Source: a virus (lineage: Duplodnaviria; Heunggongvirae; Uroviricota; Caudoviricetes). Taken from it: a stretch of 21,852 bases of DNA. The position numbers were made by a program, and so were the translations under genes. The notes beneath the pieces are model-generated. The model worked only from the letters and a program-made list of their open reading frames with translations. It had not been told where the DNA came from and ran no database searches. This document shows positions 12,481 through 19,436 of the stretch, piece after piece; positions within the stretch are counted from its first letter, which is position 1, and each line of letters opens with the position of its first letter. The DNA is taken from the IMG/VR virus record IMGVR_UViG_2690316278_000008; one strand, given 5' to 3'.

Positions 12481-12666
12481 CTACCACTCGATCGGCACGT
12501 AGTCATTAAGTTCCGGAGACCAATTGCACTTTTCACATCTGTGTTTTCCATTCTGGCAGATACATAAACGATAACGGCCACAATGCGGGCACCCATTTTC
12601 ACCATTATCATAATCACCGAGCGACCATTCCTGCATAAGCAGCTCTTCTTCATCATCATTTAGCAT
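12481..12666 (-). CDS. Small Cys-rich zinc-ribbon protein (61 aa), function unknown; third gene of accessory operon
   Basis: ATG 12666 preceded by GGGGG; MLNDDEEELLMQEWSLGDYDNGENGCPHCGRYRLCICQNGKHRCEKCNWSPELNDYVPIEW has six Cys (CxxC...CxC...CxxC) and an acidic N-terminus. Starts 14 nt after the previous gene's stop. Not recognised as Ogr or any known family. Confidence 0.55.
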   Translation of the reverse strand: MLNDDEEELLMQEWSLGDYDNGENGCPHCGRYRLCICQNGKHRCEKCNWSPELNDYVPIEW

Positions 12667-12680
12667 TAATCCCCCTTGAG

Positions 12681-12920
12681 CTATTTACTCTTCTCGGCCC
12701 TCAAAATCATACGAGAACCATCATCCAGCTCCCAATTAATTTCACCGCCTTCTGCCATGACTAGATGCCAAACGAGTTGAGCGGCCTCGTTGGTTACATC
12801 GCGACCGCGATCATTTCCTACGCGGCGTTTTGTTCCGTCTCCTAAGTCACGCATTTTTGCCAATACGATGGTTTTTGATAGCGGTGAAAAACCAAGCTGT
12901 AGTCGTGCTGAATTACTCAC
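12681..12920 (-). CDS. Hypothetical protein (79 aa); second gene of accessory operon
   Basis: GTG 12920 overlaps the upstream gene's TGA (GTGA) and is preceded by GGGGG; an in-frame ATG 63 nt downstream is an alternative start. MSNSARLQLGFSPLSKTIVLAKMRDLGDGTKRRVGNDRGRDVTNEAAQLVWHLVMAEGGEINWELDDGSRMILRAEKSK. No recognisable motif. Confidence 0.5.
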   Translation of the reverse strand: MSNSARLQLGFSPLSKTIVLAKMRDLGDGTKRRVGNDRGRDVTNEAAQLVWHLVMAEGGEINWELDDGSRMILRAEKSK

Positions 12921-13441
12921 TGGCTGCCCCCTTTGTACTGTGTTAACTCTTCCTGCTCCTGCATCATGCGATTGACCTGAACGCGTGTGCGTCGAACGGC
13001 AAAATTAAATTGAAACATGAGCCGGAACATTTCTGATGCTTCCGTGTGAGCATCACGGATAGGTGACAGGCGGTACAGTTCTGCCTCCGTAGCTTGTTGA
13101 ATCAATGACAGATCAAATTGAAGTGCGGGTCTGGTACATTTTGCACATCTGGCAGCAAGCTCCGGTATTAGTCTCTTAACGAAGGTGTTTTGCACCGCTT
13201 TGTTGATTTGTGTCTGCATCCAAATCGCAAATTTCAGCGAACGCATAAGTTTGATAGCCTCGGGCAGCGGCAGATAGATCATGCTGGTAGATTTGGGTGG
13301 TTGGTGAACCATCTTCACGGATACGCGATTTCGCAGCGTTCGGAAAATCGTGTTCCCAACAACAGCTTCTACGGATACAGGACAGGGAGCCAGACCAGCC
13401 CGCAGTGCTTCTTTCATTAGCATGTATTCGTATTTTTTCAT
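12917..13441 (-). CDS. Hypothetical protein (174 aa); first gene of accessory operon
   Basis: ATG 13441 preceded by GAGGA; MKKYEYMLMKEALRAGLAPCPVSVEAVVGNTIFRTLRNRVSVKMVHQPPKSTSMIYLPLPEAIKLMRSLKFAIWMQ...LAARCAKCTRPALQFDL...RLMFQFNFAVRRTRVQVNRMMQEQEELTQYKGGSQ. No Walker or nuclease motif seen. Fully unmasked; lies 60 nt downstream of parR on the same strand. Confidence 0.6.
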   Translation of the reverse strand: MKKYEYMLMKEALRAGLAPCPVSVEAVVGNTIFRTLRNRVSVKMVHQPPKSTSMIYLPLPEAIKLMRSLKFAIWMQTQINKAVQNTFVKRLIPELAARCAKCTRPALQFDLSLIQQATEAELYRLSPIRDAHTEASEMFRLMFQFNFAVRRTRVQVNRMMQEQEELTQYKGGSQ

Positions 13442-13501: not shown

Positions 13502-13813
13502 TCATTCAGGAAATAATGCCCGGATATTCCCTGCTATCTGACTGGTTATCTGTGCGGTTGGTACTGGCTGTGGCACGGGGCGTTCTGTCCTGGTTTGTGT
13601 CACCGATAACGCCTCATCGTCAGCCCATGCAGCCAGTCGGTAAGCCTCTGCTGGATTCATTTTCAGAAGTGCCAGCCCGGCCAGAAAAGCCACGCGTTGG
13701 CCGCTTTTGCGGGCTTCTGGTGTAAGGCTGCCCAGCCAGGCGCATGCTTCGCTTTCGTTCTTGACGGCCGCAGGCTTCAGATAGAAACTTATCCGTCTGG
13801 TTGGTGTCGTCAT
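13502..13813 (-). CDS. parR: ParR-like centromere-binding adaptor (type II partition, RHH family)
   Basis: Proposed start ATG 13813 (AAGGAG upstream, 7 nt after parM stop): MTTPTRRISFYLKPAAVKNESEACAWLGSLTPEARKSGQRVAFLAGLALLKMNPAEAYRLAAW...IAGNIRALFPE. Resembles plasmid R1 ParR (RRTIAFKLNP...RAALTAGLALY...RSLFPKE). The track's longer ORF from 13948 overlaps parM and is rejected. Confidence 0.6.
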   Translation of the reverse strand: MTTPTRRISFYLKPAAVKNESEACAWLGSLTPEARKSGQRVAFLAGLALLKMNPAEAYRLAAWADDEALSVTQTRTERPVPQPVPTAQITSQIAGNIRALFPE

Positions 13814-13817
13814 TGGT

Positions 13818-14777
13818 TTACTCCTTGTCCATTGCGTACAGCCCATTAACCAGAGCAAACTGTGGCACCCCGTCCGCGATGAAAGTCGCATTAACTCCGC
13901 AGGCTTCGCGGATAGCGGGTGCCACAATCTCCGCCCCTCCACCGACAACCATCACCCGCCCGTAACCCGAAAAACCCGCCAGCGCGCGGATCACGCGTTG
14001 TTTCAGTGTTTCTTCCTTTTCACGAATAACCGCCATCAGGCTGGCGTAATGCGCGTCATTGTGGATGTGCTGGCGCAGCCAGGCTTCATCATGGCGATGT
14101 TCGATAATGGTATTGGCGATGTGGTGACTGGTGCGCATACCGTTAGTGGCCATCACCGACAGTACGGCATCGGCCATCAGAGAAACGCCTACGTGTGGAT
14201 CGCAAAACACCTGGCTGATACCTGCCAGTTGCCCCTGAACCTTTGCCACATCCAGCGTGGTTCCGCCCAAATCCACAATCAGCAGGGATTCAAACGGACT
14301 CATGTCAGCCAGTGCCTTAAAGCCAGCCGGAATGGATTCAGGCATAACCCGCACGTTACGGATAGTGAATGCTTCGCCGTTCTGGTACTCCACCGGGCGC
14401 ATAACGTTCGCTTTTTTGCGGTTGATGTTGGCCATGTCCGGCTGTGCGTTTGTGTCGAAATACTCGCTCAGTGGCAGGGTGACAACCACATCCACCTCCT
14501 GTGGCGTGATGCCTGATTTGACCAGCGCGTGATGAATGGCAATGACATTTACATCGCTGTACTGGTATTGCGTGTCGGTTGTCTGGACAAAGCGATCGCT
14601 GACCGGATCAAAACCATAGCGCACGCCATCAAGCATGTAGTTCGCGGGCTGCATGCCACCGAACGGCGCAGACCATTCCGACTTGAAGCTGTTCGGGCTG
14701 ATGGCGTTGCGGCGTTCGCCGTTCTCAGTCCATGCCAGCTTGATGTTGGTGGAGCCGTCGTCGATACAAATTTTCAT
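13818..14777 (-). CDS. parM: ParM/StbA-like actin-type segregation ATPase (type II partition)
   Basis: 319 aa, fully unmasked, ATG 14777 preceded by AGGAA: MKICIDDGSTNIKLAWTENGERRNAISPNSFKSEWSAPFGGMQ...VNVIAIHHALVKSGITPQEVDVVVTLPLSEYFD...VMPESIPAGFKAL...LLIVDLGGTTLDVAKVQGQLAGISQVFCDPHVGVS...VMVVGGGAEIVAPAIRE...ALVNGLYAMDKE. Resembles plasmid R1 ParM (MLVFIDDGSTNIKLQW..., 320 aa), including the phosphate-binding DDGSTNIK and DLGGTTLD motifs. Confidence 0.85.
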   Translation of the reverse strand: MKICIDDGSTNIKLAWTENGERRNAISPNSFKSEWSAPFGGMQPANYMLDGVRYGFDPVSDRFVQTTDTQYQYSDVNVIAIHHALVKSGITPQEVDVVVTLPLSEYFDTNAQPDMANINRKKANVMRPVEYQNGEAFTIRNVRVMPESIPAGFKALADMSPFESLLIVDLGGTTLDVAKVQGQLAGISQVFCDPHVGVSLMADAVLSVMATNGMRTSHHIANTIIEHRHDEAWLRQHIHNDAHYASLMAVIREKEETLKQRVIRALAGFSGYGRVMVVGGGAEIVAPAIREACGVNATFIADGVPQFALVNGLYAMDKE

Positions 14778-14808
14778 GTCGCTTTTCCTTATGTTGATTA
14801 ATTAATCG

Positions 14809-14920
14809 TTTACGGGATTCTGAAATCCCGTTTTTGCCTGTTTTGTGCGCGCTTCATATATCGCTGCGCGTTTTTTGCTCATTTACGGGATTCGTGAGTC
14901 CCGTTTCTGTCTGTTTTTTG
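14809..14920. repeat. Two ~39-bp direct repeats, each with a hairpin-forming palindrome, upstream of parM (candidate parC centromere/operator)
   Basis: Repeat A 14809-14847 tttacgggattctgaaatcccgtttttgcctgttttgtg (perfect 8-bp palindrome acgggatt/aatcccgt, 14812-14831); repeat B 14882-14920 tttacgggattcgtgagtcccgtttctgtctgttttttg (6-bp arms, 14885-14904); about 33/39 identical. Repeat A begins 32 bp upstream of the parM ATG and overlaps a plausible promoter (TTCAGA ... TAATTA). Confidence 0.4.
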
Positions 14921-15028
14921 TTTCCACTGGTCAGGCCACCCCGCAGCAGGTCTGCTTTGCGGCGGGCGCGTTCAGTGGTTTCACTGATTCTCTGTGCGTG
15001 CTCTGCGTCGCGGATGGCGCGCAGCATG

Positions 15029-17965
15029 TCAGAAAGCACGGTAACGGGTGTTTTCATGGTGTTCTGGTCCTGCTGAAGTGTGGATGCCAGGCGTGNGTGC
15101 GGCGGCTTCAGGGTCTGATGCCCCCAGCTGTGTCAGATAGCTGGCGACCGGGTTATGGCGGATCTCCGTGCTGCTTACGCCATGATTACGGCTCAGGCGC
15201 TGCCAGAGCTGCGTGATTCGGCTGTCCGGGCGGGTATCCGGTTTGCGTACAATTTCAAATCCCTGCGGTGCAATGATGCTGCCGTCAACGTACAGACTGC
15301 CGCCCCGTAACAGGTGCTGCATCTGTTGTTCACCGATATGCAGGCCGAGAGATTCAGCAGACTCCCGCCATTCTTTAGCGAGTAATTCGTGGTTATCAGG
15401 CAAAGGCCGCTGCTGTTTGCGGCTCTGTGTCCAGCTCTGCATTTCATCACTGCTGTTTTTTGCCTGTTTGTCACGAAGCGAACGCATCAGCGCCCGGCGT
15501 TCGTGCCGTTTCAGTGAGCGCATCCATTCATCCACATCAACGCCGTCAGGGAGCTGCGGCCACGGTGCTGGCCGTTCTTCCGGCTGTTCTGTCCCGTTGT
15601 TGTCCGTTTCCTGTACACGGGGACAGTTATTGCCACGAGTCCAAGGGGCGGCAGGGCCGCCCTGAAGGTCAAAACCATTTTCGCGGGCGCTGTCTTCCGC
15701 TTCCGGTTTGCGTCTTACCAGCNNNNNNNNNNNNNNNNNNNNNNNNNNNNNNNNNNNNNNNNNNNNNNNNNNNNNNNNNNNNNNNNNNNNNNNNNNNNNN
15801 NNNNNNNNNNNNNNNNNNNNNNNNNNNNNNNNNNNNNNNNNNNNNNNNNNNNNNNNNNNNNNNNNNNNNNNNNNNNNNNNNNNNNNNNNNNNNNNNNNNN
15901 NNNNNNNNNNNNNNNNNNNNNNNNNNNNNNNNNNNNNNNNNNNNNNNNNNNNNNNNNNNNNNNNNNNNNNNNNNNNNNNNNNNNNNNNNNNNNNNNNNNN
16001 NNNNNNNNNNNNNNNNNNNNNNNNNNNNNNNNNNNNNNNNNNNNNNNNNNNNNNNNNNNNNNNNNNNNNNNNNNNNNNNNNNNNNNNNNNNNNNNNNNNN
16101 NNNNNNNNNNNNNNNCTTCAGCCGTTGCGGGCCTTCCGGGTTGCGTGCCATCTGGCTGGCAAGGCGGCGCAGTTCACGCCATACCTGGCGGGAGGGGATG
16201 CCAAAGAACTGGAACTGGCGGACCCGGTGAAGGCGCGCCCAGCCGATGGCGCGTTCCACGCTCTCGGCCATTGATTTTCCGGTTTCGTGGTCAACGCGTG
16301 GCTTGCCCGTTTTCGGGTCGATGCCATCCACGGCGCGGCTGTCCAGGTTTTTCCCGATGTAGGTGGCGATGTAGCTGGTTGGCGTGCCTTTTGAGCCGTC
16401 TACATACTCCGCCTTAAAGCGCGGAGTTATGTCATCGCCCAGCTCGTGACGATCTTCCTGAATGGCAATATCGCGGGTGTGGGACACAATGGTGTCGATT
16501 TCTTCCGGATGAGCAAAGACCATCATATGCCAGTGCACGGTGCCGTCATGGTGAGGCTCCGCCGTGCGGATGCCATACCAGCGCAGGCCGTCGCGGTTCA
16601 GTTTTTTGCGGACCGTCGCAAAAAACGTGTTAACCAGGTAATCGCTGGAGTCGCGCATTGTGGCCCCGTTCCATTTGGGATTCGGATGACCGTTCTCCGT
16701 TGTGGCGTGGTATTTTGACGGGCAGGTGACAGTCAGAAACACCGCTTTGTCGCCACGGGCTTCGGCCAGAAGTTCCAGCCCCTTCATGGTGGCCATCATT
16801 TCTGCCTTACGGTGAACCGGGTTACTTACTCCCGCGTAATACACCGTCTCGAGATCAATCGTGAACCCGTCTTCATTTTCCAGCATGAAACTTTTCAGGA
16901 AATCGCGTGTTTTCTCGCGCTGTGCGCGAAACTCGCTTAACGCGTCCTGGCTCAGATAGGGCGATGTTTTTCTGGAAACCAGACAGGCGGCGCGAAGTTG
17001 TTCTTCTCTCCACTCGCAACGTAACAGCCACAGTTTGCGTTTCCANNNNNNNNNNNNNNNNNNNNNNNNNNNNNNNNNNNNNNNNNNNNNNNNNNNNNNN
17101 NNNNNNNNNNNNNNNNNNNNNNNNNNNNNNNNNNNNNNNNNNNNNNNNNNNNNNNNNNNNNNNNNNNNNNNNNNNNNNNNNNNNNNNNNNNNNNNNNNNN
17201 NNNNNNNNNNNNNNNNNNNNNNNNNNNNNNNNNNNNTGTAACGCCATGCGGGCCAGCATCTGATACGCCTTCAGCGTTACATCCATGNNNNNNNNNNNNN
17301 NNNNNNNNNNNNNNNNNNNNNNNNNNNNNNNNNNNNNNNNNNNNNNNNNNNNNNNNNNNNNNNNNNNNNNNNNNNNNNNNNNNNNNNNNNNNNNNNNNNN
17401 NNNNNNNNNNNNNNNNNNNNNNNNNNNNNNNNNNNNNNNNNNNNNNNNNNNNNNNNNNNNNNNNNNNNNNNNNNNNNNNNNNNNNNNNNNNNNNNNNNNN
17501 NNNNNNNNNNNNNNNNNNNNNNNNNNNNNNNNNNNNNNNNNNNNNNNNNNNNNNNNNNNNNNNNNNNNNNNNNNNNNNNNNNNNNNNNNNNNNNNNNNNN
17601 NNNNNNNNNNNNNNNNNNNNNNNNNNNNNNNNNNNNNGGCGAATAAGCGGATCGCGCAGATAGGACGGCAGCAGGCGCAGCGAGGCCATGGCTTCATCCA
17701 CCGCGCCGCGTGCCTGTTTTCTGGCGTCTCCTGCCAGTGTGATGGTTTTGTCCTGTTTTTCCTGTGCGTCCAGGCTTTTATTAATCAGGTTGCCCAGTGG
17801 CGTGGCGGAGAACGCCGCATCAGCCATTTCCTGGCGGCGCTCGTTCTCTGCCCGGTGGGCATCCAGCCAGGAGGAAAGCGCGGATTCAGGAGCGGGGATC
17901 CCCGTTCCTTCACGCCCCACTGCGTGGCGCGGTTGTTGCCAGTCCCTGATGTACTCTGCCGTCAT
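15029..17965 (-). CDS. A: Replication initiation endonuclease, P2 gpA-like (HUH rolling-circle initiator); interior partly masked
   Basis: ATG 17965. Block 16116-17045 translates ...LRWYGIRTAEPHHDGTVHWHMMVFAHPEEIDTIVSHTRDIAIQED...SYIATYIGKNLD..., containing the HUH motif (HWHMMVF) of P2 A-type initiators. After mask 15723-16115 one frame stays open from 15722 to TGA 15031-15029, so the four track ORFs in this interval are treated as one gene broken by non-frame-preserving masks. Nominal span is longer than P2 A (~761 aa); length is uncertain. Single n at 15096. Confidence 0.75.
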
Positions 17966-18924: not shown

Positions 18925-19436
18925 TACGCCTCCTTGGCGTGTGCGAATACCTCCGCGAATGCGGATTGTTTTCACATTTTCTTATTTAACCTGGGGTCTT
19001 ATTTGCGCGGTTATTCTTCAGTGAAAAAGCGTTCAATCTTTTTTACTGAATTAATAATTCGCATAANNNNNNNNNNNNNNNNNNNNNNNNNNNNNNNNNN
19101 NNNNNNNNNNACCACCGAAATAATCAGAACAAGCCATGAAATAAATANNNNNNNNNNNNNNNNNNNNNNNNNNNNNNNNNNNNNNNNNNNNNNNNNNNNN
19201 NNNNNNNNNNNNNNNNNNNNNNNNNNNNNNNNNNNNNNNNNNNNNNNNNNNNNNNNNNNNNNNNNNNNNNNNNNNNNNNNNNNNNNNNNNNNNNNNNNNN
19301 NNNNNNNNNNNNNNNNNNNNNNNNNNNNNNNNNNNNNNNNNNNNNNNNNNNNNNNNNNNNNNNNNNNNNNNNNNNNNNNNNNNNNNNNNNNNNNNNNNNN
19401 NNNNNNNNNNNNNNNNNGCCCATCACAACGCCCTTT

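What the first reader, a model, noticed from the sequence alone, without database searches (positions are those of the whole stretch)
13502..14920. Complete ParM/ParR partition module with upstream repeats inside a P2-like phage that also carries an integrase
A ParM-type actin-like ATPase (319 aa, DDGSTNIK and DLGGTTLD motifs) followed by a ParR-like adaptor, preceded by direct repeats, is the classic plasmid R1 parC-parM-parR layout. P2-type phages lysogenise by integration, and this element also carries a P2-type int and C. A partition system in the old/tin position could mean a phage-plasmid lifestyle, stabilisation of an excised episome, or a repurposed cytoskeletal module.
Basis: partly seen in the sequence, partly recalled or inferred. 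Interest (0 to 1): 0.7.

Follow-up and report, generated by a model that had tools for sequence, protein, structure and literature searches.

The report
ParM/ParR partition cassette in P88-like prophage
A common P2-type E. coli prophage (phage P88 group) carries a plasmid-style actin-like DNA-segregation cassette right after its replication gene; the cassette is intact and conserved, but it is already annotated and discussed in the literature, and these phages are almost always integrated in the chromosome rather than living as plasmids.

Summary
On the minus strand the window holds parM (13818-14777, 319 aa), parR (13502-13813, 103 aa) and two 42-nt repeats (14806-14847, 14879-14920). ParM is 47% identical to R1/R100 ParM. 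ParR is a PF10784 (StbB/ParR) protein.

The element is a phage P88-like (Xuanwuvirus) P2-type prophage, and the genes are already annotated as ParM/partition protein in GenBank and RefSeq. Rousset 2022 and Pfeifer 2021 already suggested that these phages might be kept as plasmids.

What this analysis adds:
- Each repeat holds an 18-bp box, CGGGAyT-N4-AATCCCG. The pair lies 72-73 bp apart in three phage lineages whose ParM proteins are only 60-63% identical.
- parMR is linked one-to-one with the P88-type gpA gene and lies directly downstream of it, with no promoter or same-strand terminator found between them.
- parM is under strong purifying selection (dN/dS 0.03-0.13).
- ParR keeps the family's C-terminal tail motif.
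- In complete E. coli genomes, 1789 of 1791 copies are chromosomal. One 34-kb circular record exists.

Best reading: a functional, minimal ParMRC that acts on the transient circular phage DNA. The nearest tested parallels are SrpMRC of SXT/R391 ICEs and AlpAC of prophage CGP3. It is not a stable plasmid lifestyle. The function is untested.

The parts
13818..14777 (-). parM: 319-aa actin-like ATPase of the StbA/R1 ParM family.
   Evidence: Pfam PF06406 at 2.7e-82 and PF21523 at 1.3e-68. PDB 1mwk R1 ParM at E 8.5e-93, aligned over residues 2-316. 47% identity to R100 ParM, with IDDGSTNIKL, VMPESIPAG, DLGGTTLD and GGGAE conserved. dN/dS 0.03-0.13 against relatives.
13502..13813 (-). parR: 103-aa ParR/StbB-family adaptor. 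It starts 4 nt after the parM stop and has its own AAGGAG Shine-Dalgarno sequence.
   Evidence: Pfam PF10784 at 2e-23 and phrog_2515 at 2.3e-56. 32% identity to R100 StbB over the N-terminal 56 aa. The N-terminal TRRISFYLKP segment is invariant, the linker is variable, and the C-terminal NI(R/Q)xLFPE is conserved. That C-terminus aligns with the C-terminal tail motif of plasmid ParRs. An AF2 monomer model, at low confidence, shows helices 20-61, a disordered stretch 63-84 and a helix 86-100.
14813..14830 (.). Box 1: palindrome CGGGATTTCAGAATCCCG (minus-strand reading), 36 nt upstream of the parM ATG. Candidate ParR binding site (half of the parC-like element).
   Evidence: The arms are conserved and the 4-nt centre varies across 10 loci. 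The same box type is found at the same position in the distant lineages L014 and L015.
14886..14903 (.). Box 2: CGGGACTCACGAATCCCG (minus-strand reading), 73 bp upstream of box 1 and inside the 3' end of gpA.
   Evidence: In L006 the gpA stop codon falls inside the box, and in L014 the box lies 11 nt before the gpA stop. Its conservation is therefore not explained by gpA coding constraint.
14806..14847 (.). Repeat unit 1 (42 nt): box 1 plus an A-rich 5' flank on the minus strand (T-rich on the plus strand).
   Evidence: the repeat finder family D1. On the plus strand the unit looks like an intrinsic terminator.
14879..14920 (.). Repeat unit 2 (42 nt, 81% identical to unit 1): box 2 plus the flank.
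14786..14790 (-). Shine-Dalgarno sequence AAGGA of parM, 8 nt before the ATG.
   Evidence: Read directly from the sequence. Conserved across loci.
14854..15535 (-). 3' part of the P2-type replication endonuclease gene gpA (context). The ORF is broken by a single N at 15097. parM follows it after 76 nt.
   Evidence: phrog_6857 at 3.8e-65 and 3.8e-42, and phrog_91 'nicking at origin of replication'. P88 annotation.

Best explanation
This is an intact type II (ParMRC-type) DNA segregation cassette that forms a fixed part of the replication module of the P88-like branch of P2-type phages.

Proposed mechanism:
- ParR dimers bind the two 18-bp boxes upstream of parM through an N-terminal ribbon-helix-helix (RHH) fold. 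The RHH fold is inferred from family membership; the boxes as ParR sites are inferred from position and conservation.
- The conserved C-terminal tail of ParR recruits ParM. This is inferred from homology to the R1 ParR tail.
- ATP-ParM filaments then push apart, or position, the circular copies of the phage genome.

The cassette follows the rolling-circle initiator gene gpA with no detectable promoter or terminator in between. It is therefore probably expressed with the early (replication) operon. That would make it active when the phage DNA is extrachromosomal, that is after infection and before integration, or after excision or induction. It would be silent in the repressed, integrated prophage.

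Its likely benefit is one or both of two things: keeping the few circles from being lost at cell division, or organising replication. It does not serve to maintain a stable plasmid prophage.

Shown here: homology, intactness, purifying selection, a conserved paired cis element, linkage to gpA, and chromosomal residence. Inferred: ParR-box binding, timing of expression, and the phenotype.
For: Homology and intact motifs:
- ParM and ParR family matches and conserved ParM motifs.
- The ParR C-terminus aligns with the family's C-terminal T(R/K)xNAxx(L/M)F tail, including R100 StbB ...TKKNAMKLIN.

Selection and age:
- parM dN/dS is 0.03-0.13 at dS up to 0.61; parR dN/dS is 0.2-0.5, with the N-terminal part more constrained.
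- Three further P2-like phage lineages carry parMR between gpA and portal: L014, L015 and L016. ParM is 60-63% identical among the window, L014 and L015 lineages and 46-50% identical to R100 ParM. L014 gpA is 55% identical to P88 gpA. This points to long retention in phages.

Cis element:
- The two boxes lie 72-73 bp apart in the window, L005/L006, L014 and L015. They are the only matches to the full box pattern in the whole 34-kb phage record L002.
- The ParR N-terminal segment TRR(I/V)SFYL is conserved in the lineages that share the box.
- The more distant L016/L017 lineage has different repeats.

Linkage:
- The 14 phage records with P88-type gpA (at least 85% identity) are the same 14 that carry this ParR.
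- No sigma-70-like promoter, and no minus-strand terminator, was found between gpA and parM.

Lifestyle:
- 1789 chromosomal against 2 plasmid places in complete E. coli genomes.
- A 99%-identical relative is integrated beside pheL/pheA.
- One 34,461-bp circular record is the whole phage including int. An identical phage is integrated in a sister strain.

Precedents:
- SrpMRC of the integrating, rolling-circle-replicating SXT/R391 ICEs. Its centromere has four repeats, it is expressed only around excision, and it stabilises the excised form (PMC4489591).
- AlpAC of the integrated prophage CGP3, which is needed for normal copy number of the induced phage DNA (PMC4446434).
Against: - There are no experimental data for this cassette. 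ParR binding to the boxes, filament formation and any phenotype are all untested.
- There are only two boxes. R1 parC needs ten iterons for full activity (own knowledge: Dam and Gerdes 1994), so centromere function with so few sites is uncertain.
- The boxes plus their T-rich plus-strand tails also look like two tandem intrinsic terminators for antisense transcription.
- The absence of a promoter rests on a simple consensus scan. A weak ParR-regulated promoter between the boxes, as in R1, is not excluded, so expression in lysogens is possible.
- A phage that lyses the cell has no obvious need for faithful segregation, so the selective benefit remains an inference.
Confidence: 0.55

Rival explanations
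1. Facultative phage-plasmid. The phage can persist for many generations as a low-copy circular plasmid prophage, with parMRC providing stable inheritance, in addition to integrating. This is the hypothesis of Rousset 2022 and Pfeifer 2021.
For: - The partition cassette is complete.
- One 34,461-bp circular 'plasmid' record (NZ_CP148288.1) is the entire phage including int.
- The only other phage in the collection with this ParM type is D6, a 91-kb phage annotated with a StbA-type plasmid stability protein and known to me as a plasmid prophage.
- Published suggestions.
Against: - 1789 of 1791 places in complete E. coli genomes are chromosomal; an independent query gave 1544 of 1546.
- Most of the other 'plasmid' records in PLSDB are very large replicons of 0.2-1.4 Mb. 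One is a linear, IS-broken fragment.
- The same phage as the circular record is integrated in a sister strain, so that circle may simply be an induced replicative form.
- int was present in every full element examined: the window, P88, L002 and the EA2 prophage.
- Under repression of the early promoter, gpA would not be made. There is then no evident way to replicate as a plasmid (inference from P2 biology).
Confidence: 0.15
2. The cassette acts only in the lytic cycle. ParM filaments position or spread the monomeric circles produced by gpA rolling-circle replication, so replication and packaging are more efficient and segregation to daughter cells plays no part. This is AlpAC-like or PhuZ-like. 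It overlaps with the best explanation in mechanism and differs in the benefit.
For: - The position directly after gpA, with no promoter found.
- The AlpAC precedent: a 2-fold drop in phage copy number without AlpA or AlpC, and filaments that are not suited to segregation.
- One-to-one linkage with one gpA clade.
Against: - Most P2-like phages replicate well without any such system. The other records with a gpA match (368 of the 382, all under 60% identical to P88 gpA) lack this ParM.
- There are no data on the timing of expression.
Confidence: 0.2
3. The two repeats are not a centromere. They are tandem intrinsic terminators on the plus strand that stop antisense transcription (for example read-through from the late P-Q operon) from entering gpA. 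ParR would then bind elsewhere or nowhere.
For: On the plus strand both boxes form 8-bp hairpins (-10 to -11 kcal/mol) followed by T-rich tails, and they are called terminator-like. The C/T variant in box 2 keeps a G-U pair only in the plus-strand RNA.
Against: - The arm sequences, not just the pairing, are conserved, while the loop varies.
- In lineage L014 the paired boxes (GCGGGACAACAAAAACCCG) keep the 72-bp spacing, but they have only a 4-bp stem with a 10-nt loop and do not look like terminators.
- The position immediately upstream of parM matches that of the centromere in the characterised type II loci (R1; SXT/R391 srpC).
- A dual role is possible.
Confidence: 0.07
4. The cassette is accessory cargo of the gpA-gpQ hotspot, with a defence or competition role. 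It might act against competing phages, or destabilise resident plasmids through partition incompatibility.
For: It lies in the region that Rousset 2022 define as a hotspot rich in anti-phage systems.
Against: - No PADLOC model matches.
- It is invariant next to gpA while the genes downstream of parR vary between relatives. It behaves as backbone, not as cargo.
- tblastn with this ParR finds no genuine plasmid homologue at E<=1e-3. All 7 PLSDB hits also match the parMR-gpA DNA of this phage at about 95% identity or more. Cross-talk with plasmid centromeres is therefore unlikely.
Confidence: 0.03

Closest known systems
ParMRC (StbA/StbB) of plasmids R1/R100, type II partition
   Same: - Same gene order: cis site, then parM, then parR.
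- ParM is 47% identical over its full length, with the nucleotide-binding motifs kept.
- ParR belongs to the same Pfam family, with a similar N-terminal domain (32% identity) and the same C-terminal tail motif.
   Different: - The host replicon is an integrating phage, not a low-copy plasmid.
- The cis site is two 18-bp palindromic boxes 73 bp apart, not two sets of five 11-bp direct iterons around a clear promoter.
- No consensus promoter was found.
- ParR is shorter (103 against 116 aa) and lacks the middle helix TTxxxIxxxxxSVxP that is present in plasmid ParRs.
SrpMRC of SXT/R391 integrative conjugative elements (Carraro et al. 2015, PMC4489591)
   Same: Both are integrating elements with a tyrosine recombinase, transient rolling-circle replication of the excised circle, an actin-type partition locus and a small cis site (four 13-bp repeats in srpC). 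SrpMRC is co-regulated with excision and replication and was shown to stabilise the element only in its transient excised state.
   Different: SrpMRC belongs to a conjugative element, not a virus. SrpM and SrpR are only distantly related to R1 ParM and ParR, and SrpR has no recognisable ParR domain. The phage proteins, by contrast, are clear R1-family members. SrpMRC function is demonstrated; the phage cassette is untested.
AlpAC/alpS of Corynebacterium glutamicum prophage CGP3 (Donovan et al. 2015, PMC4446434)
   Same: An integrated prophage that encodes an actin-like ATPase and a DNA-binding adaptor. The adaptor binds repeats in the upstream region of its own operon. The genes are induced early after excision and are needed for normal phage DNA copy number.
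   Different: The gene order is reversed (adaptor first), the host is Gram-positive and the actin-like lineage is unrelated. CGP3 is a large cryptic element.
Escherichia phage D6 (P1-like plasmid prophage) StbA-type partition
   Same: It is the only other phage among 50,697 records with an R1-type ParM, at 47.8% identity.
   Different: D6 is a 91-kb extrachromosomal plasmid prophage (own knowledge: Gilcrease and Casjens 2018). It does not rely on integration, and its ParR was not detected with the P88-type ParR.
Phage P88 / PhiSM / Xuanwuvirus annotations, and the 'P2 hotspot partition system' of Rousset 2022
   Same: This is the same cassette. ParM is 99.7% identical and ParR 93% identical to those of P88, and the genes are annotated as ParM and partition protein. 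[quoted passage not shown] P88 is listed as a possible phage-plasmid.
   Different: The cassette itself is not different. The window carries a different set of small genes downstream of parR than P88 does.

Membership tests
Type II (ParMRC) partition system, R1/StbAB family | Actin-fold ATPase ParM with intact nucleotide-binding motifs | tested here: met
   PF06406 at 2.7e-82 and PF21523 at 1.3e-68. R1 ParM structure matched at E 8.5e-93 over residues 2-316. IDDGSTNIKL, VMPESIPAG, DLGGTTLD and GGGAE are conserved against R100 ParM.
Type II (ParMRC) partition system, R1/StbAB family | Small adaptor ParR (DNA-binding N-terminal domain) encoded immediately downstream of parM | tested here: met
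   PF10784 at 2e-23. The gene starts 4 nt after the parM stop. 32% identity to R100 StbB over residues 6-61. The RHH fold itself was not confirmed: the AF2 monomer model has mean pLDDT 58.
Type II (ParMRC) partition system, R1/StbAB family | C-terminal ParR tail that binds ParM | tested here: inconclusive
   The C-terminal ..IAGNIRALFPE aligns with the conserved C-terminal T(R/K)xNAxx(L/M)F motif of plasmid ParRs, including R100 ..TKKNAMKLIN. N96 is nearly invariant, and a helix is predicted at 86-100. Binding to ParM was not tested. That this tail binds ParM in R1 is from my own knowledge (Gayathri et al. 2012).
Type II (ParMRC) partition system, R1/StbAB family | Centromere parC: an array of ParR-binding repeats upstream of parM, overlapping its promoter | tested here: inconclusive
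   Two conserved 18-bp boxes lie 72-73 bp apart upstream of parM in three diverged phage lineages. There are only two sites, they are palindromic rather than tandem iterons (compare), and no promoter was detected. ParR binding is untested.
Type II (ParMRC) partition system, R1/StbAB family | Stabilises a low-copy extrachromosomal replicon | not testable with these tools
   This needs a plasmid stabilisation assay.
Phage-plasmid (temperate phage maintained as a plasmid prophage) | The prophage resides as an autonomous extrachromosomal replicon in lysogens | tested here: not met
   1789 chromosomal against 2 plasmid places in 5,426 complete E. coli genomes, and 1544 against 2 with another query. 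A close relative is integrated at pheA. Only one phage-sized circular record was found.
Phage-plasmid (temperate phage maintained as a plasmid prophage) | A plasmid-type replication and partition module is present, and usually there is no reliance on integration | tested here: inconclusive
   A partition module is present. Replication is by the P2-type gpA rolling-circle initiator. An integrase is present in the window and in the relatives examined.
Anti-phage defence systems of the P2 gpA-gpQ hotspot | Similarity to known defence proteins, and variable presence as swappable cargo | tested here: not met
   No PADLOC hit for ParM, ParR or the three downstream proteins. parMR is fixed next to one gpA clade, while the genes downstream vary.
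Peduoviridae, genus Xuanwuvirus (P88-like P2-type phages) | Nucleotide and protein similarity and synteny with phage P88 | tested here: met
   95-99% nucleotide identity to P88 and related phages over parMR and the gpA end. P2-type capsid, scaffold, terminase, portal, tail and gpA genes are in P2 order.

The most novel reading that the evidence does not exclude
A whole branch of integrating P2-type phages has kept, over long evolutionary time, a minimal two-box ParMRC as part of its rolling-circle replication module. The phage uses actin-like filaments to segregate or position its transient circular genomes, either between infection and integration or after excision. This would be the first such system in a Gram-negative integrating virus. 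It would be a natural 'minimal centromere' and the phage counterpart of SrpMRC in ICEs. In some hosts it might allow a facultative plasmid state.
Probability: 0.4. Interest if true: 0.55.

Novelty: already known. Interest (0 to 1): 0.3.

Why it matters
About a quarter of complete E. coli genomes carry DNA of this cassette, yet nobody appears to have tested what a plasmid partition machine does in a phage that integrates. If it acts on the transient circular form, it would extend to viruses the idea that integrating elements need active partition while they are excised, as shown for SXT/R391 ICEs. It would also provide a very small natural centromere (two boxes) for studying how ParR caps ParM filaments. 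As a discovery, though, the presence of the cassette and the plasmid-maintenance hypothesis are already in the databases and the literature.

Tried and rejected
- My first ParR translation (13502-13815) used the wrong frame. The correct start is the ATG at 13813.
- NCBIfam gave only sub-threshold hits.
- The PDB sequence search with ParR found nothing, even at E<=1.
- The promoter scan found no sigma-70 consensus near parM. By eye I found only weak candidates between the boxes, and they are not conserved in the Salmonella and L014/L015 relatives.
- Rfam had no match in the window.
- The AF2 model of ParR is of low confidence (pLDDT 58), so I ran no fold search on it.
- I first thought that the phage ParR C-terminus (NIRALFPE) matched the internal R100 motif NILRSLFPKE, and that the ParM-binding tail was therefore missing. 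The wider family alignment shows that it aligns with the true C-terminal tail motif, so I dropped that idea.
- The 26.8-kb Shigella 'plasmid' hit is a linear, IS-broken prophage fragment, not an episome.
- Several literature hits for 'ParM' were false matches to author names such as Parma and Parmley. The paper on chromosome-encoded ParMs does not mention phages.
- The genome-contig scan found only 3 species-level loci, one of them in a 'Vagococcus' assembly that is probably contaminated.
- I considered and rejected the idea that the cassette is a decaying plasmid remnant, because of the strong purifying selection and the conservation across lineages.
Full report
**What is there.** The finding's interval holds three things, all on the minus strand.
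- parM (13818-14777) encodes 319 aa with DDGSTNIK and DLGGTTLD.
- parR runs from the ATG at 13813 to the stop at 13502 and encodes 103 aa. The 148-aa TTG ORF in the mechanical ORF list merely extends this frame upstream into parM.
- Two 42-nt direct repeats lie at 14806-14847 and 14879-14920. They are 81% identical and 73 nt apart, and each contains an 18-bp palindrome.

ParM matches Pfam StbA_N (2.7e-82) and the ParM C-terminal domain (1.3e-68). ParR matches PF10784 Plasmid_stab_B (2e-23). Both also match PHROG 'partition protein' families. ParM aligns end to end with the solved R1 ParM (1mwk, E 8.5e-93). It is 47% identical to R100 ParM, with the segments IDDGSTNIKL, VMPESIPAG, DLGGTTLD and GGGAE conserved. 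ParR is 32% identical to R100 StbB over its N-terminal 56 residues. The one correction is that the upstream repeat lies inside the last codons of the preceding gene.

**Context.** The gene upstream of parM is the 3' end of a P2-type replication endonuclease gene, gpA (phrog_6857 and phrog_91). Downstream of parR come three small genes: a 174-aa protein with no family match, a DUF7446 protein and a 61-aa zinc-ribbon protein. After them comes the portal gene on the other strand. P2-type capsid, scaffold, terminase and tail genes, an HTH repressor and a tyrosine integrase fill the rest of the window.

Megablast shows that the element is a close relative (95-99%) of Escherichia phage P88, PhiSM and other Xuanwuvirus members. 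In those records the two genes are already annotated as 'plasmid segregation protein ParM' and 'partition protein'.

**Prior art.**
- Rousset et al. 2022 analysed the gpA-gpQ region of 18,150 E. coli P2-like prophages. [quoted passage not shown] Their tables list StbA + Plasmid_stab_B arrangements.
- Pfeifer et al. [quoted passage not shown]
- I found no paper that tests the cassette.

**Is it a plasmid prophage?** In 5,426 complete E. coli genomes, the parMR-gpA junction region matches 1,375 genomes, with 1,544 places on chromosomes and 2 on plasmids. A 14-kb query gave 1,789 chromosomal places against 2. A 99%-identical relative lies in the E. coli EA2 chromosome with int next to pheL/pheA.

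In PLSDB, 7 records carry this ParR:
- Five are replicons of 0.2-1.4 Mb.
- One is a linear, IS-broken fragment.
- One, NZ_CP148288.1, is a 34,461-bp circle that is the whole phage, including int.

A phage 100% identical over the 14.5-kb segment compared is integrated in the chromosome of a sister isolate. That circle could be an induced replicative form or a rare episomal state; the data cannot distinguish these. As a habitual lifestyle, plasmid maintenance is not supported.

**Is the cassette functional and old?** Against relatives, parM has dN/dS of 0.03-0.13, with dS up to 0.61. parR has 0.2-0.5, with the N-terminal half more constrained.

A profile search of 1.84 billion representative proteins found only 36 ParR relatives. 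Looking up the genomic context of the nearest distant ones gave three further P2-like phages (L014, L015 and L016), each with parM-parR between gpA and portal. One further relative, L018, sits among toxin-antitoxin and relaxosome genes, which suggests a plasmid. ParM is 60-63% identical among the window, L014 and L015 lineages and 46-50% identical to R100 ParM. L014 gpA is 55% identical to P88 gpA.

Among 50,697 phage records, the 14 with P88-type gpA (at least 85% identity) are exactly the 14 with this ParR. The only other phage with an R1-type ParM is D6. tblastn with ParR finds no genuine plasmid homologue at E<=1e-3.

The cassette therefore behaves as conserved backbone of the replication module of one branch of P2-type phages. 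It does not behave as swappable hotspot cargo. The variable genes begin after parR.

**The cis element.** I aligned the gpA-parM junction from 10 loci. The arms CGGGAyT / AATCCCG are conserved and the central 4 nt vary. In the Hafnia-like loci L005 and L006, the gpA 3' end is otherwise strongly diverged and the gpA stop codon falls inside box 2.

The distant lineages L014 and L015 again have exactly two boxes of the form YGGGM-N8-WCCCR, 72 and 73 bp apart. The upstream box again overlaps the end of gpA in L014. The pattern occurs nowhere else in the window or in the complete 34-kb phage L002. The pattern was derived from these same sites, so the independent evidence is its uniqueness and the constant spacing, not the matches themselves.

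Lineages that share the box also share the ParR N-terminal segment TRR(I/V)SFYL. The more distant L016/L017 lineage has a different pair of 19-20-nt inverted arms. R100 parC is quite different: two sets of 11-bp direct iterons around a promoter.

I therefore read the two boxes as a minimal parC-like ParR site. A rival reading exists. On the plus strand each box plus its T-rich tail looks like an intrinsic terminator. The L014 boxes keep the spacing but not the hairpin, which argues for a protein site. A dual role is not excluded.

**ParR anatomy.** Across alleles, residues 1-62 are conserved, residues 63-92 are highly variable, and the last eight residues NI(R/Q)xLFPE are conserved. parM and the boxes can be nearly identical (dS 0.05-0.08) while the rest of parR is anciently diverged (dS 0.7-1.9). 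The break lies near codon 18. This indicates recombination that swaps parR alleles along with the downstream cargo.

A family alignment places the phage C-terminus on the conserved C-terminal T(R/K)xNAxx(L/M)F tail of plasmid ParRs, including R100 ...TKKNAMKLIN. In R1 that tail is the ParM-binding peptide (own knowledge: Gayathri et al. 2012). The Xuanwuvirus ParR lacks the middle helix that plasmid ParRs and the L014/L015 ParRs have. A low-confidence AF2 monomer model is consistent with this layout: helices, then a disordered linker, then a C-terminal helix.

**Mechanism proposed.** parM follows gpA after 76 nt. No sigma-70 consensus and no same-strand terminator lie between them. parR is translationally close-coupled to parM.

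I infer co-expression with the early replication operon. The system would then be on when the genome is an extrachromosomal circle replicating by the gpA rolling-circle mechanism, and off in the repressed integrated state.

Two experimentally studied systems show that this logic works in integrating elements:
- SrpMRC of SXT/R391 ICEs has four repeats, is expressed with excision, and stabilises only the transient excised form.
- AlpAC of prophage CGP3 is induced early and gives a 2-fold effect on phage DNA copy number.

The data cannot tell which benefit applies here: retention of circles at cell division before integration or after excision, or organisation of lytic replication.

**Verdict.** It is already annotated, and the phage-plasmid idea is already in print, so novelty is low. 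Genome-wide evidence argues against a stable plasmid lifestyle and favours a role for the transient circular form. The new details offered here are:
- the two-box element with fixed 72-73-bp spacing across lineages;
- the one-to-one linkage with a gpA clade;
- the mosaic parR alleles with a conserved tail;
- the near-exclusive chromosomal residence.

These are modest but testable.

Noticed in passing
window 13502-13813 (parR), break near 13759: parR exists as at least three deeply diverged alleles (52-74% aa identity) joined to nearly identical parM and boxes. Nucleotide similarity to the phages carrying the second allele stops about 55 nt into parR. The left recombination boundary of the variable gpA-gpQ hotspot therefore seems to lie inside parR.
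   Followed up: partly
window 12481-13441, minus strand: Three small genes lie between parR and the cos/portal side: a 174-aa protein with no Pfam, PHROG, NCBIfam or PADLOC match (12917-13441), a DUF7446 protein (12681-12920) and a 61-aa zinc-ribbon protein (12481-12666). This cargo differs from that of P88 and other relatives. Its function is unknown.
   Followed up: partly
window 14854-17700 (gpA) and L001 11164-13986: P88-type gpA is 940 aa long. All other P2-like gpA proteins in the phage collection are 43% identical or less, and their tblastn alignments stop at about residue 796. The last ~145 residues, next to the par boxes, may therefore be specific to this clade.
   Followed up: no
L002 (NZ_CP148288.1, whole record) and NZ_CP148378.1 2669387-2683854: A 34,461-bp circular 'plasmid' from a cat E. 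coli isolate is a complete P88-like phage including int. A phage 100% identical over the 14.5 kb compared is integrated in the chromosome of a human isolate from the same series.
   Followed up: partly
window 14791-14806 (minus strand GATTAATTAATCAACA); L014 3009-3023; L015 263-277: A short motif, ATTAAyCAA, lies between box 1 and the parM Shine-Dalgarno sequence. It is conserved in three lineages whose surrounding sequence has diverged. Its role is unknown; it could be a -10-like element, a binding site or a translation signal.
   Followed up: no
window 14848-14878: Between the two boxes, a short direct repeat CGCGCA ... GCGCGCA flanks GATATAT. In the Hafnia-like loci both copies read CGTGCA, the same C-to-T change in both. 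This could be a second protein site or chance.
   Followed up: no
window, many stretches (for example 15700-16100, 16950-17600, 19070-19420) and the single N at 15097: The window contains long runs of N that mask parts of gpA and the early genes. A single N splits the gpA reading frame into two apparent ORFs. The long 'X' ORFs in the ORF list are artefacts of this masking.
   Followed up: no
L009 (NZ_JBQPOM010000071.1, 'Vagococcus sp. WN89Y'): A contig labelled as Vagococcus (a Gram-positive genus) carries a 91%-identical ParR and a 98%-identical ParM in the same phage context. Contamination of that assembly with enterobacterial DNA is likely.
   Followed up: no
L003 (GCA_008711365.1 contig VXJO01000004.1): This is a decaying copy of the prophage. 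gpA is split into fragments, IS/transposase genes follow parR, and parR residues 37-60 look frameshifted. parM is still intact at 98% aa identity.
   Followed up: no
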